DNA from: the human T2T-CHM13v2.0 reference genome, Homo sapiens
Direction: 5' to 3' (one strand)
NCBI RefSeq assembly: GCF_009914755.1
Contig: NC_060941.1
Length of the DNA: 64,000 nucleotides
Shown here one piece after another: positions 50,809 to 55,654 of the stretch. Position 1 is the stretch's first letter, and each line of letters opens with the position of its first letter. Position numbers and translations under genes: made by a program. The notes beneath the pieces are model-generated. The model made no database searches and was not told where the DNA came from. It was given only the letters and a program-made list of their open reading frames with translations.

Positions 50809-51957
50809 AGAAAAACAGGGAAAATATACGAAGACAATACTGCATCTAAAATAATAACAAACAGTACTAAATACTTTTAAAACTTTTCAACTATATGTGA
50901 ATCATATATAAAAGATAATGGCACCTAGTTTACAGAAATGGTATGCCTCTTGTACAATTTTGTGTTTTATAATAGCAAGGAGCCAAATCAAACTTTAATA
51001 TTGAATTCTATAAATATTAATGTAAAATATTTTCATGTGAAATGATGAAATTTTGGGGAAAGCGTTAAGATAATCAAAATAATATAAATTCCCGAATAAA
51101 GGAAGACTGAGCCAAGAAAATACAAAGTTATTATAAAATGTACTAAAATATCTATCTAATTATGCCTTGTTACACATTCCTTTTAATCAGTATTTACCAT
51201 TGGGTTTTCAAAGGTTAATTTCTGGGAACAGTAAATTTCATATAGCTTTTGTTTTCTTTCCAATACATTGACGCTTGTTTATTACAGAGTGGAATTTGGT
51301 GTAAGATGGGTTGTTTTGGACCTGGTCCAAGAGGGTTTAGTTACTGAAAGCACCTCATTATAAGGTAGTCTTACCAATAAGGTGATCTGCTGGCTCAGAT
51401 CCCATGTATATTATAACAAGGCTCCATTGTGGAGTACAGGAAGCCAGGCAGCTAATGGTTCTATCAAATGAAACTTAAGAAACAAAATTCTTTTTTTTTT
51501 TTTTGAGACATGAAAATTGTTTAAGGCTAGAGGATCATAAGCCTTGGTCACTTTTCCAAATTTCTATTTCCTGATGTTCTTTATTGTATTTTTCATAGCT
51601 CTGCAGTTATTTTACGTTAAGGTTTTAGCTTTCTTACATTCATTGCTTGATCTGGTCTTAAAATTTTTTTTGATTATCATCAATACTATCTATTTACAAA
51701 AGATTAACTGCATTTACCTATGGAAATAGATAATAAACCACCAAGAATTCATAAAGGTTAAATTCTTGTGTAACTCATTGAGAAATCAGCGTTTAAAAGA
51801 GCATATGCGAGAATAATTGTGTGGTAATCAAATACAAAAGAATGCCATCACTTAGAGATGACCATGATAACCAGCCTTTCAAGTGATTTGACAACAGGTG
51901 CTTTGATTTCATGAAATTTTGTAAGCAGCCCTAAAGAATTAAATATTTTAAATGCGT

Positions 51958-51963
51958 TTTAAT
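51958..51963 (-). terminator. Candidate distal BRIP1 poly(A) signal ATTAAA
   Basis: tttaat on the + strand, at the distance expected for the long UTR. Confidence 0.5.
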
Positions 51964-52865
51964 ATAGGAAAGTAATACAAAAAAGTCCAGTTGCAGAAAA
52001 ATAACGGGGAAAAGCTTTTTGTTAAAATTAATGTTTTGAATAGAAAGATCTTAACAACAAAGCCTTATAGAAACTTAGAAACAGTGCCAAATTTAAACCC
52101 ATGTAATAACTAAGTGCATAGAAACATAGTAATAGTTTTATAACACAATTCTAGACAGTTTTAAATAATTTAATCAAGTCATGAAACATCTACTCTTTAC
52201 ATTGTACCTTTATTCCAAGAATAAAGCCCTGTCTCTAACTGGTAGTTTTCCTGGTTTGCAGCCTGTGTGCTCTATATACTTTCAGTCCTTGAATAAATTC
52301 AGTATTAGATAATTATTTCATATGCATTGAATGTGTCACATAAATTATTTGATAAACAATCTCTACCTTATACATCTCAAAAGCTTAAAAAATAAGCCAG
52401 CCAAATAATTTTTCTTTCCTCAAATCTTTATTGTCAGTCTATCACCTATATATCTATAGTTAGGGAAGCTTTCATATAGAGCAAGGGTGCACTCCAGATA
52501 TATGATTCATCTACTAATTAATAATGAATAACTTGCAATGTGCCAGGTGCTCTTTTAAAAGCATTTAGATGTTTTAACTTATTTAACTCTGTAAACATTT
52601 CTTTTAAAAGTAAGTTATCAGTAATGAAAATGGCCTACATCCTACTCTATAAAGGCCAGTAGTTTACTTCTTGGAATATCATCTTGGTCAGTCATGATCT
52701 GAGGAGAATATACACCTGTTTCAACAGTGATTATCATTGTATAAAATTTTTGAAACACCTTTTGGAATTACTAAAGGGTTGTGACACATCTCTATGTACA
52801 TTCTCAGTAATGAAAATTTTTAACTTCAGGGAGAATTAAATTTTGGAAAGAATAAAAAATATCTA

Positions 52866-53170
52866 GGCCAGGCATGGTGGCTCACGCCTGTAATCCCAAC
52901 ACTTTGGGAGGCCGAGGTGGGCAGATCACTTGAGGTCAGGAGTTTGAGACCAGCCTGGCCAACATGGTGAAACCCTGTCGATACTTAAAAAAAAAAAAAA
53001 AAAAAATTAGCTGGGTGCAGTGGTGTACACCTGTAATCCCAGCTACGCAGGAGGCTGAGACATGAGAATCGCTTTAACCTGCGAGGCAGAGGTTGCAGTG
53101 AGCCAAGATCGTGCCTTTGCACTCCAGCCTGAGCGACAGAGCAAGACTGTCTAAAACAAACAAACAAAAA
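52866..53170 (+). mobile_element. AluS in BRIP1 3'UTR (antisense to mRNA)
   Basis: Full Alu, expanded A linker. Confidence 0.95.
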
Positions 53171-53284
53171 CATATCTAGCTAGGGAAAGGGGAAAGTATT
53201 GGAGATGAAGTTGGGTAATAACACTAAGATATGAATAATATGCTTAATTTTCTCATGTAGTTTACCAATTCTAAAGGTAATTTC

Positions 53285-53585
53285 TTTTTTTTTTTTTTTT
53301 TTTTTGAGACGGAGTCCCGCTCTGTCGCCCAGGCTGGAGTGCAGTGGCGCAATCTCGGCTCACTGCAAGCTCCACCTCCCGGGTTCACGCCATTCTCCTG
53401 CCTCAGCCTCCTGAGTAGCTGGGACTACAGGCGCCCGCCACCACGCCTGGCTAATTTTTTGTATTTTTAGTAGAGACGGGGTTTCACCGTGTTAACCAGG
53501 ATGGTCTCGATCTCCTGACCTCGTGATCCGCCCGCCTCGGCCTCCCAAAGTGCTGGGATTACAGGCGTGAGCCACCGCGCCTGGC
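53285..53585 (-). mobile_element. AluY in BRIP1 3'UTR (sense to mRNA)
   Basis: CpG-rich near-consensus AluY, TSD ctaaaggtaattt 53271-53283 / 53586-53598. Confidence 0.97.
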
Positions 53586-53680
53586 CCTAAAGGTAATTTT
53601 AAAAGTCCTCAAAATGTTTTAATTGTAGCATTGCGAAAATAAATATCTAGCTTTCCAAGTTATTATGCACATATACCATC

Positions 53681-54034
53681 TGTGTCAGTCTGTTCTCATG
53701 CTGCTAATAAAGTCATACCCAAGACTGGGTAATTTATAAAGGAAAGAGGTTTAATTGACTCACAGTTCTGCATGACTGAGGAGGCCTCAAGAAACTTACA
53801 ATCATGGCGGAAGGCAACTTTTCACAGGGCAGCAGGAGAGAAGAATGAGAGTGAAGCAGGGAAAAGCTCCTTATAAAATCATCAGGTCTCATAAGAACTC
53901 AGTATCACGAGAACCGCATGAGGGTAACCGCCCCCACGATTCAATTACCTCCCACTGGGTCCTTCCCACAACACGTCGGGATTATGGGAACTACAATTCA
54001 AGATGAGATCTGGGTGGGTAGCCAAACCACGTCA
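53681..54034 (-). mobile_element. THE1 (ERVL-MaLR) solo LTR in BRIP1 3'UTR, sense to BRIP1
   Basis: Reverse complement of THE1 consensus (…gccaaaccacgtca); TSD ccatc 53676-53680 / 54035-54039. Confidence 0.92.
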
Positions 54035-54368
54035 CCATCGTTCCCTAAATGTAAATGAGTAAGAGCCACTTTACTTTTTAAATGAAATAATATGCTTTAT
54101 TTTAACCGTTCTGGAACAAAAGCAAATGAAAATCGACTCAGAATATCAACAGACATTCCTTTATAGATTCTCAAAGCACAAAGAAATTTGTATGATTTTA
54201 TAGTACTAACCGCTGCATTTTACAGATGAAACTAATTCCCTGAAGGGTGTGGTGATTGCCAATATGACTTAGCAAATCAGTGGCAGAGCCAGGTGTAGAG
54301 CCCAAGTCTCTTGTCTTCTACCAGGTATTTATTCGTTTCACTACCCTACTATCCCTATCTGTGGTTTA

Positions 54369-55165
54369 AGAATAATACCAGAGGAGATAAATTGTTTCAC
54401 CCTTTCAAAACAATGTAAAAATTACCTTCTAATCGAGTATTTGGTATTTACTGCTCAATGATCAACTAGAAAAAATATATAATACTAGATGGGATCTAAT
54501 ATATTCTAAATTCTTTAACTGGTAACTTGTCAATTTAAATGTCTTTGAACTACGCTTAGAGTTGTAACATCAAATGCTATAGAAACAGGCTGTAAAAATC
54601 TAAATGTCTCAAAATGGAAGCAAAGACATACCTATATAATGATTCATTTATCCAAATGAAATGTAAAGTAAATCCTTACTGGAAATTTTGACTTGAAAAT
54701 AATAGACCATACAGAATTCTTGGATAGCTCATAAAATTTCAATTCAAATTACTCACAAAAAGTCCCAATGCCCAGTGAATAACAGATGTTTCTTAAAAAG
54801 AGATCAATGAATGTATTTTTGGAATGATGTCAGAGATGAGCCTCTTTTATAATCATTTTTGATTAGACATATAGCTTCATTCACAAAAACACAAACAAGG
54901 TCAAAATTCACAGAAAGGATTACTGTGCCCTAAGGAAACATATTTTAGCTGCAGCAATAAATGTGGGTTTGCTTATCAAATTTATATATGAAGTTTTCTA
55001 TCTTAATCATTGTATAACTAAAGCTTATGCTAGAACAATACCAGAGGGGATAAATTGTTTCACCCTTTCTAAACAATGTAGAAATTACCTTCTAGTCTAG
55101 TGTTTGGTACTTATTACTCACTGATCCACTAGGAAAAATATATAATACTAAGCAGGATCTAGTAT
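54369..55165 (+). repeat. ~134-bp direct duplication (54369-54502 and 55032-55165)
   Basis: aataccagagg.gataaattgtttcaccctttc...ggatcta shared, roughly 80% identity by eye. Confidence 0.92.
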
Positions 55166-55654
55166 TTTTTTCCACAATGATGGTGAAGCTAAATAATTAG
55201 AATAGAAAATTTGGAATACTTCATTTGGCATTTTATATCTTTACGTCAATTTGTTTATGACATGTTTGGTTTTAGGTTTATTATACAAAGAATGTAAAAC
55301 AATTTCAATTAAAAATGCATACTACTTTCTTAATTTCTCTTAATTACTTATAAGTAGGCAGTTTAATAACGAAATAAACCTTTCAAGACAAATGGTGATC
55401 TCTGAAAAAGTCTTGGACTGATTTGAGGTAAAATCTATAGCGAAATATGACTGAGGTGTCACTAGATTAGACTGCTGTTAATTTTTATGTATCAGTGTGA
55501 AAACAAATGGATGAAGAGAACCACCTAATATGAATATTTACGTGAAACTAGAAGTGCCCTAGGATCTTTGAATAATTTTAAATTGCATTTAGCTAAGGAA
55601 GACTTATTTGAGGACAATACTTTGTATGAATTACTTTATCAAAACTCAAGAATG

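What the first reader, a model, noticed from the sequence alone, without database searches (positions are those of the whole stretch)
51375..55524. The BRIP1 3'UTR appears to be built over former coding exons
Seen: chained translation GSLHPFVFTLIHKN*QQSNLVTPQSYFAIDFTSNQSKTFSEITICLE/S-GSVSNKYQTLD*K/GTVILSVNFDLVCVFVNEAICLIKNDYKRGSSLTSFQKYIH*SLFKKHLLFTGHWDF/.../TESI*STQAANQENYQLETGLYSWNK/GLLTKFHEIKAPVVKSLERLVIMVISK*WHSFVFDYHTIILAYALLNADFS.../SFDRTISCLASCTPQWSLVIIYMGSEPADHLI. Six of eight segments lie within the transcribed UTR and keep strong sites (AAG|gtaatt, TT|gtgagt, tttccttag). The Alus and THE1 fall between them. Inference: residual UTR splicing could create NMD-sensitive BRIP1 mRNAs, and UTR variants could matter for this cancer gene.
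Basis: partly seen in the sequence, partly recalled or inferred. Interest (0 to 1): 0.78.

Follow-up and report, generated by a model that had tools for sequence, protein, structure and literature searches.

The report
BRIP1 3'UTR: one relic alternative exon
The long tail of the human BRIP1 message is ordinary non-coding sequence, except for one 80-base piece that other mammals are predicted to splice in as an alternative end of the protein and that is broken by a stop codon in humans.

Summary
But 5 of 6 carry in-frame stops. Open-frame lengths match dinucleotide shuffles (16 frames of 40 aa or more against 15.9±2.9). As a chain of former coding exons the finding fails.

One segment is real. 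In those models it is joined to a 5' splice site six codons before the stop, right after "..NKG". Seven of 27 ortholog clusters that reach that point diverge exactly there. In human that site reads AAAG|GC, not GT, and the exon has TAG where the others have Trp.

Two further downstream exons of these models match 45792-45673 and 36927-36701, beyond the human gene end.

Human splicing and NMD could not be tested. Verdict: partly supported, modest interest.

The parts
56100..56944 (-). Coding part of the last BRIP1 exon (exon 20); stop codon TAA at 56102-56100
   Evidence: Hub annotation. A 286-codon open frame is listed. Its 280-aa translation finds 82 BRIP1/FANCJ orthologue clusters.
56115..56126 (-). 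Position of the alternative 5' splice site used in other mammals, after the first base of the Gly codon of '..NKG'. The exon would end at 56123. Human reads AAAG|GCATGTTT, so the intron would start with GC, not GT.
   Evidence: Sequence shown. 7 of the 27 orthologue clusters that reach NKG diverge exactly after it.
52208..52287 (-). Exon A: 80-nt human counterpart of an alternative BRIP1 exon. Acceptor ..ttcaag|GACTG, donor ATAAAG|gtacaa. In-frame TAG at 52237-52235 where the other species have Trp.
   Evidence: tblastn of orthologue tails gives E 7.4e-9 (P0056), 3.1e-7 (P0028), 6.7e-6 (P0051) and 4.3e-5 (P0024). The best reversed-window null is 25.8 bits, E 0.015. 16-19 of 27 residues are identical. 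Single copy in the genome.
51944..56099 (-). Annotated 3'UTR of NM_032043.3. It is AT-rich (GC 0.29-0.35 outside repeats). ATTAAA at 51963-51958 lies ahead of the annotated end at 51944.
   Evidence: Hub annotation.
55382..55522 (-).
   Evidence: No orthologue-tail match. No Pfam match.
55089..55127 (-).
54759..54929 (-). The open part is 41 aa.
   Evidence: The only Pfam match is a sub-threshold chance hit (13 bits against a cut-off of 25).
51779..51931 (-).
51376..51471 (-).
   Evidence: No Pfam match. No orthologue-tail match.
55032..55168 (-). Copy 1 of the 137-nt direct duplication (86% identical to copy 2)
   Evidence: Only these two copies exist in the whole genome.
54369..54505 (-). 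Copy 2 of the 137-nt direct duplication. It carries the same ..ctag| and GAAG|gtaatt motifs.
53690..54050 (-). Interspersed LTR-type repeat (THE1/MaLR by recalled consensus)
   Evidence: 6921 first-look candidates in the genome; 40 scored, the other 39 at 81-85% identity.
52866..53590 (.). Two Alu-like copies in opposite orientation. The inverted arms are 52993-53170 and 53291-53468.
   Evidence: pair I1: 178 nt, 78% complementary, 120 nt apart. The hub's repeat mask covers 53273-53628.
45673..45792 (-). Exon B-like block: counterpart of the exon that follows exon A in the Tupaia model. The human reading has a stop.
   Evidence: tblastn with P0024 gives E 7.7e-7, 47.5% identity over 40 aa. Frames shown. 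Single copy.
36701..36927 (-). Exon C-like block: counterpart of the terminal exon of the Myotis models, which is joined directly to the NKG donor. The human match runs through three frames and includes one stop.
   Evidence: tblastn with P0025/P0026 gives E 4.1e-19 over three pieces of 64-84% identity. Sequence and frames. Single copy.

Best explanation
The stretch is the ordinary, AT-rich, repeat-laden 3'UTR of BRIP1 plus about 570 bases of downstream flank.

One piece, 52287-52208 (-), is the human counterpart of a conserved 80-nt alternative exon. In predicted isoforms of other placental mammals, a 5' splice site six codons before the BRIP1 stop (after '..NKG') is joined to this exon. The last six residues are then replaced by a basic tail of 27 or more residues. 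The transcript either ends just past the exon or continues into exons whose human counterparts lie at 45.7 kb and 36.8 kb of the window, beyond the human gene end.

In human the module has decayed as a coding unit. The upstream donor reads GC instead of GT. The exon has TAG at the Trp codon. Eight residues differ from the consensus of the other four species. Exons B and C carry stops, and the exon C match runs through three frames.

Shown here: the homology, the boundary coincidence, and the human stop and GC.
Inferred: that the non-primate models reflect real splicing, that the tail was ever translated, and that the human copy is a relic rather than a live exon.
For: - Segments verified, with stops in 5 of 6.
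- Open frames match shuffles.
- 97 equally good acceptor-donor pairs are available in the region.
- Of 82 BRIP1 orthologue clusters, 55 end 3-102 residues before the human stop, 20 end at it, and 7 extend beyond it.
- All 7 extended clusters diverge right after NKG or NEG.
- Four of those tails hit 52291-52208, with E from 7e-9 to 4e-5. The best reversed-window null is 25.8 bits, E 0.015.
- The Pipistrellus and Tupaia tails part from each other exactly at the residue encoded by AAG|gt at 52208. All four tails join after G|GACTG at 52287.
- Tupaia and the two bats share 24 of 27 residues. Human shares 16-19 of 27 with the four tails.
- Exon A is single copy in the genome.
- The Tupaia and Myotis tails continue into 45792-45673 (E 8e-7) and 36927-36701 (E 4e-19).
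Against: - The non-primate isoforms are predicted models, named 'isoform X..' by their sources. No RNA or protein evidence for them was seen.
- Only 4 clusters (33 member sequences) carry the exon A tail. The word-index searches that looked for more scored few candidates: 2 and 163.
- No DNA of other mammals was available. Conservation of a non-coding UTR element therefore cannot be separated from codon-level constraint.
- The match runs past the donor in Phyllostomus: five residues and the stop are identical to the human reading. This fits nucleotide-level conservation as well as it fits coding.
- The hedgehog tail differs from the Pipistrellus tail at 8 of 27 residues (19 of 27 identical), as many as human differs from the majority residue of the four tails, so 'relaxed constraint in human' rests mainly on the TAG.
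- The splice-like pair count is somewhat above shuffles (5 of 300 reach it).
- The hub says RefSeq has 22 human BRIP1 transcripts. I saw only one, so a human model using exon A may already exist.
Confidence: 0.7

Rival explanations
1. Exon A is still a live alternative exon in human. It would be spliced from the GC donor at 56122 or from another UTR donor. From the GC donor it would give an isoform ending 17 residues after NKG at the TAG. From within the UTR it would create a 3'UTR intron and an NMD-sensitive mRNA.
For: - The human AG at 52289-52288 and GT at 52207-52206 are intact.
- AAAG|GCATGT keeps A at -2, G at -1, A at +3, G at +5 and T at +6. From recall, this is the kind of context that rare GC-AG introns need.
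- Exon A is single copy and better kept than neutral sequence would be expected to be (the neutral expectation is my inference).
Against: - The acceptor is weak: A at -3 and 8 of 12 pyrimidines.
- The hub lists no such exon for the selected transcript.
- BRIP1 does not occur in the 12 of 18 supplementary files of the pan-cancer 3'UTR-splicing study that were searched.
- No paper in the library holds both 'BRIP1' and 'UTR splicing'.
Confidence: 0.2
2. Nothing here is an exon in any meaningful sense. 52287-52208 would be a conserved non-coding 3'UTR element, and the non-primate 'isoforms' would be artefacts of automatic gene prediction chaining rare or spurious junctions.
For: - All tail-bearing proteins are automatic predictions (source names).
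- Conservation continues past the donor.
- The tail profile resembles no protein family. The search of 1.84 billion representatives returned only 4 repetitive, compositionally biased proteins.
Against: - The same junction after NKG recurs in 7 clusters from bats, hedgehog, tree shrew and manatee.
- The same two exon A boundaries recur in models that then continue differently.
- The frame is open in all four species that have the exon.
Confidence: 0.12
3. One reading: the 3'UTR is built over a series of about eight former coding exons that still keep strong splice sites.
For: - The letters and motifs are as quoted.
- There is a mild excess of acceptor-donor pairs over shuffles (97 against 63±14).
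- One segment is a real exon counterpart.
Against: - Stops occur in 5 of 6 segments.
- Frame lengths are at chance on both strands.
- No orthologue extends through the human stop into the UTR. 20 of 82 clusters stop at the same codon, 55 stop earlier, and the 7 longer ones leave by a splice before the stop.
- There is no similarity to any tail apart from segment 5.
- There are no Pfam matches at the cut-off.
- Segment 2 is a duplicated unit.
- Two of the six printed segments lie outside the transcript.
Confidence: 0.03

Closest known systems
Predicted BRIP1/FANCJ isoforms with an alternative C-terminal tail: Pipistrellus kuhlii isoform X4 (P0028), Phyllostomus discolor isoform X1 (P0056), Erinaceus europaeus isoform X2 (P0051), Tupaia chinensis (P0024), Myotis lucifugus isoforms X1 and X3 (P0026, P0025)
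   Same: Same gene and same junction after '..NKG'. The first four carry the same 80-nt exon, with both boundaries matching AG and GT in the human sequence. Their downstream exons match human 45.7 kb (Tupaia) and 36.8 kb (Myotis).
   Different: In human the donor reads GC and the exon has a TAG. Exons B and C carry stops, and the exon C match runs through three frames. The stretch is annotated as plain 3'UTR or as intergenic (hub table).
3'UTR introns and EJC-dependent nonsense-mediated decay (abstracts of PMC13223760 and PMC9203280 in the listing; the 50-55 nt rule is recalled)
   Same: By the rule it would mark the mRNA for NMD.
   Different: No junction evidence exists here for BRIP1. The one supported exon is joined upstream of the stop in other species, which changes the C-terminus rather than creating a 3'UTR intron.
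Lineage-specific loss of an alternative exon (pseudo-exon or relic exon), a general notion from recall
   Same: A recognisable homologue with intact flanking dinucleotides but a disabling stop and a changed partner splice site.
   Different: Loss of use in human is inferred, not shown.

Membership tests
Relic or alternative protein-coding exon of BRIP1 (exon A, 52287-52208) | Significant similarity, in one frame, to an exon that is part of the coding sequence of orthologues | tested here: met
   tblastn E from 7.4e-9 to 4.3e-5 for 4 tails. The best reversed-window null is E 0.015. 16-19 of 27 residues are identical.
Relic or alternative protein-coding exon of BRIP1 (exon A, 52287-52208) | Exon boundaries coincide with AG and GT dinucleotides | tested here: met
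   ..caag|GACTG at 52287 and AAG|gtacaa at 52208. The tails join and part at these residues.
Relic or alternative protein-coding exon of BRIP1 (exon A, 52287-52208) | Open reading frame in human | tested here: not met
   TAG at 52237-52235 in the NKG-joined frame.
Relic or alternative protein-coding exon of BRIP1 (exon A, 52287-52208) | Codon-level constraint (dN/dS, PhyloCSF) across species | not testable with these tools
   No DNA of other mammals is held. Only four predicted protein tails are available.
Relic or alternative protein-coding exon of BRIP1 (exon A, 52287-52208) | Transcript (junction) evidence | not testable with these tools
   No RNA-seq resource is available. The models' names come from the sources.
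   4 of these 5 have stops. No orthologue-tail match lies in them at E of 10 or less. Of the 9 open frames of the region scanned against Pfam, 0 reach the curated cut-off. Frame lengths equal shuffles.
3'UTR intron giving an NMD-sensitive mRNA | Exon junction more than about 50-55 nt downstream of the termination codon | tested here: inconclusive
   The geometry would be met, since all segments lie 570 nt or more downstream of 56100. But no junction is shown to exist.
3'UTR intron giving an NMD-sensitive mRNA | Junction reads that rise when UPF1 or SMG1 is inhibited | not testable with these tools
   No such data here. BRIP1 is absent from the 12 of 18 supplementary files of PMC9203280 that were searched.

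The most novel reading that the evidence does not exclude
BRIP1 of the placental ancestor had a regulated alternative 3' end. A 5' splice site six codons before the stop was joined to a short conserved exon, now inside the human 3'UTR, and on to further exons up to 19 kb downstream. This swapped the extreme C-terminus for a basic tail.

Anthropoid primates disabled the coding use (GT to GC at the donor, Trp to stop in the exon). They kept the exon's splice sites, so the human gene may still use it as a non-productive or regulatory splice in its 3'UTR.
Probability: 0.2. Interest if true: 0.5.

Novelty: new member of a known kind. Interest (0 to 1): 0.3.

Why it matters
BRIP1 (FANCJ) is a clinically tested ovarian and breast cancer and Fanconi anaemia gene. 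Variants in its 3'UTR are usually ignored.

The result narrows the places where a UTR variant could plausibly act through splicing. Instead of 'the whole UTR' there are two:
- the 80-nt exon at 52287-52208 (chr17:62,548,208-62,548,287 in T2T-CHM13);
- the GC/GT position at 56122-56121.

It also shows that the extreme C-terminus of the protein is evolutionarily labile: 55 of 82 orthologue clusters stop 3-102 residues earlier. That bears on how truncating variants near the end of the gene are read.

Otherwise the finding is ordinary. An AT-rich 4-kb UTR offers about a hundred exon-like motif pairs by chance.

Tried and rejected
1. Coding signal in the region. Stop-to-stop frames against 300 dinucleotide shuffles showed no excess.

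2. None of the 9 reached a curated cut-off. There were two sub-threshold chance matches: DUF6140 at 14.7 bits against a cut-off of 27, and Orthopox_F8 at 13 bits against 25.

3. Searching for more species with the exon A tail.
   - The region search with P0028 scored 2 candidates and found 2 proteins.
   - The profile of four tails with 'longer' lengths scored 163 candidates and returned only the same 4 clusters.
   - Clusters are at 90% identity, so a human isoform differing only in its tail would be hidden inside the canonical cluster.

4. A profile search of 1.84 billion representatives with the tails gave 4 hits. All were repetitive, compositionally biased, non-BRIP1 proteins, so they are uninformative.

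5. Retrocopy test. The end of the coding sequence has no second copy in the genome that could have recorded a spliced form.

6. Repeat origin of exons A, B and C. Each is single copy.

7. Literature.
   - Searches found nothing on BRIP1 3'UTR splicing or an alternative C-terminal isoform. Searches returned 0 papers.
   - Passages of PMC12528612 concern a mouse Brip1 internal promoter and exon 6B.
   - Passages of PMC12428557 concern intron retention reported at chr17:61776562-61780839. By my recall of hg38 positions this lies elsewhere in the gene, so neither paper appears relevant.

8. The manatee tail (P0019, 14 residues after NKG) has no match in the window beyond chance level.

9. Earlier findings of this scan were not open.
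Full report
**What was claimed**

It noted splice-like motifs at their ends and repeats between them. It proposed that the BRIP1 3'UTR is built over former coding exons whose residual splicing could give NMD-sensitive mRNAs.

**Check of the observation**

All six printed peptide strings are present letter for letter on the - strand. They lie at 55522-55382, 55127-55089, 54929-54759, 52286-52209, 51931-51779 and 51471-51376.

The quoted motifs are there:
- AAG|gtaatt at 55088, matching 6 of 7 consensus positions;
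- TTT|gtgagt at 54756, matching 4 of 7;
- tttccttag| before 54929.

Between segments 3 and 5 lie two Alu-like copies in opposite orientation. There is also a 361-nt LTR-type repeat with 6921 first-look candidates in the genome (40 scored, the other 39 at 81-85% identity). The name THE1 is from recalled consensus.

Other points weaken the observation:
- Five of the six segments carry an in-frame stop.
- Only four of the six lie inside the annotated exon, which ends at 51944, 14 nt after the ATTAAA at 51963-51958. The other two lie downstream of it.
- The two segments behind '/.../' cannot be checked.

**Is it more than chance?**

The non-repeat UTR has a GC content of 0.29-0.35.

Open frames are at chance level:
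- The - strand of 51375-55524 has 273 stop-to-stop frames with mean length 13.9 codons.
- 16 of them are 40 aa or longer. 300 dinucleotide shuffles give 15.9±2.9, and 169 of 300 reach 16.
- The longest is 66 aa, against 85±16 in shuffles.
- The antisense strand looks the same, with 17 frames of 40 aa or more.
- As a positive control, the 845-nt coding part of the last exon is open for 280 codons.

- The region holds 41 such donors, 57 such acceptors and 97 acceptor-donor pairs 30-200 nt apart.
- Shuffles give 63±14 pairs, and 5 of 300 reach 97.
- 4 of 96 overlapping 4.2-kb intergenic tiles of the same window reach this density.

So there is a mild excess, mostly of pyrimidine-tract acceptors. 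About a hundred equally good 'exons' were nevertheless available to pick eight from.

Nine open frames of the region were scanned against Pfam. None reached a curated cut-off.

Segment 2 lies in one copy of a 137-nt direct duplication (55032-55168 and 54369-54505, 86% identical). It has only these two copies in the whole genome. The second copy carries the same ..ctag| and GAAG|gtaatt motifs. Those 'strong sites' were therefore simply copied along with the unit.

**The test that mattered: where do BRIP1 orthologues end?**

The 280-aa translation of the last coding exon found 82 BRIP1/FANCJ clusters from placental mammals. Relative to the human stop:
- 55 end 3-102 residues earlier;
- 20 end at the same position;
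- 7 are longer by 8-71 residues.

No orthologue reads through the human stop into the UTR. Instead, all 7 longer ones diverge exactly after '..NKG' (NEG in hedgehog), six codons before the stop. That is 7 of the 27 clusters that reach this point. This is the signature of an alternative 5' splice site.

The tails were searched against the window with tblastn:
- Four tails hit 52291-52208 (-): Pipistrellus P0028, Phyllostomus P0056, Erinaceus P0051 and Tupaia P0024. E values run from 7.4e-9 to 4.3e-5.
- The Tupaia tail continues into 45792-45673 (E 7.7e-7).
- The Myotis tails (P0025, P0026) match 36927-36701 (E 4.1e-19).
- The best score of any tail on the reversed window was 25.8 bits, E 0.015.
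- No tail matched any other reader segment.

**Anatomy of the supported piece**

Adding the G left by the NKG donor, human 52287-52208 (80 nt) reads as 27 codons. Of these, 16-19 are identical to the four tails.

The boundaries fit:
- The exon starts right after ..ttcaag| and ends at ATAAAG|gtacaa.
- The Pipistrellus and Tupaia models leave the exon at exactly that last codon and go on to different downstream exons.
- The Phyllostomus and hedgehog models read on and stop five codons later. Human has the identical five residues and stop there.

In the true frame human has TAG at 52237-52235 where all four others have Trp. Eight residues differ from their consensus, each by a minimum of one base. 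Tupaia and the two bats share 24 of 27 residues. The hedgehog tail differs from the Pipistrellus tail at 8 of 27 residues (19 of 27 identical), so the extra human change is suggestive only.

At the upstream donor, human reads AAAG|GCATGT. That is GC where a GT is needed for a standard intron.

The exon is single copy. An AATAAA hexamer (52214-52209) overlaps its donor.

The human counterparts of the two further exons are also broken. Exon B has a stop. The exon C match runs through three frames and includes a stop. Both are single copy. Both lie beyond the annotated human gene end.

**What it most likely is**

This is an ordinary 3'UTR that happens to overlie one conserved alternative exon of an old alternative 3' end of BRIP1.

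Shown here:
- the homology;
- the coincidence of boundaries;
- the shared junction after NKG;
- the human TAG and GC.

Inferred:
- that the predicted non-primate isoforms reflect real splicing and translation;
- that the human copy is a relic.

Against this reading:
- All tail-bearing proteins are automatic predictions.
- Only four clusters (33 member sequences) carry the exon. The searches for more were limited by the word index.
- No DNA of other mammals or RNA data could be consulted.
- Conservation continues past the donor, as it would for a non-coding element.
- The tail profile resembles no other protein family. The only 4 hits in 1.84 billion representatives were repetitive, biased proteins.

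**The NMD idea**

By the recalled rule, an exon junction more than about 50-55 nt downstream of a stop triggers EJC-dependent NMD. The abstracts of PMC13223760 and PMC9203280 in the listing describe 3'UTR introns in this light.

Nothing here shows such splicing in BRIP1:
- No paper in the library holds both 'BRIP1' and 'UTR splicing'.
- BRIP1 is absent from the 12 of 18 supplementary files of PMC9203280 that were searched.

The one supported exon is joined upstream of the stop in other species. There it changes the C-terminus rather than creating a 3'UTR intron. If the same join were used in human, translation would end at the TAG. That TAG is 27 nt before the exon's end, which by the same rule would not trigger NMD (inference).

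**Comparison and novelty**

The kind is known: alternative terminal exons, relic exons and 3'UTR introns. The non-primate isoforms are already in public protein sets.

The searches found no description of the human counterpart inside the UTR, its disabling changes, or the two downstream counterparts. I have not seen the other 21 RefSeq BRIP1 transcripts.

**Verdict**

Interest is modest, at 0.3.

Noticed in passing
window 55032-55168 and 54369-54505: A 137-nt direct duplication lies inside the 3'UTR (86% identical, 663 nt apart). It has only these two copies in the whole genome. Both copies carry the same acceptor-like and donor-like motifs.
   Followed up: yes
window 52993-53170 and 53291-53468; also 55649-56012: Two Alu-like copies in opposite orientation lie 120 nt apart in the 3'UTR (178-nt arms, 78% complementary). 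A third antisense copy lies near the stop codon. From recall, such inverted pairs can form double-stranded RNA that is edited or retained in the nucleus.
   Followed up: no
window 56100-56420 (end of the coding sequence): The extreme C-terminus of BRIP1 is labile: 55 of 82 orthologue clusters end 3-102 residues before the human stop. The tail of the Macaca fascicularis model (P0017) matches the human DNA at 56211-56170 in another frame (E 0.002). The other Old World monkey models (Papio, Cercocebus; P0013-P0016) share the start of that changed tail. This points to a frame shift near the end in that lineage.
   Followed up: partly
window 36701-36927 (-): A single-copy block about 15 kb beyond the BRIP1 gene end matches the terminal exon of the Myotis BRIP1 models in three frames (64-84% identical pieces). 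It is preceded by a strong acceptor-like ..ttttactcttag|. It is unannotated in the hub table.
   Followed up: partly
window 45673-45792 (-): A single-copy block matches the exon that follows exon A in the Tupaia BRIP1 model (47.5% identity over 40 aa, E 8e-7). The human reading has a stop.
   Followed up: partly
window 52209-52214 (-): An AATAAA hexamer overlaps the donor site of exon A (ggAATAAAg|gtacaa). Splice-site use and polyadenylation could compete here. This is speculation.
   Followed up: no
window 54150-54340 (-): A stretch next to the second copy of the 137-nt unit looks like a MIR element by recalled consensus. It was not tested.
   Followed up: no
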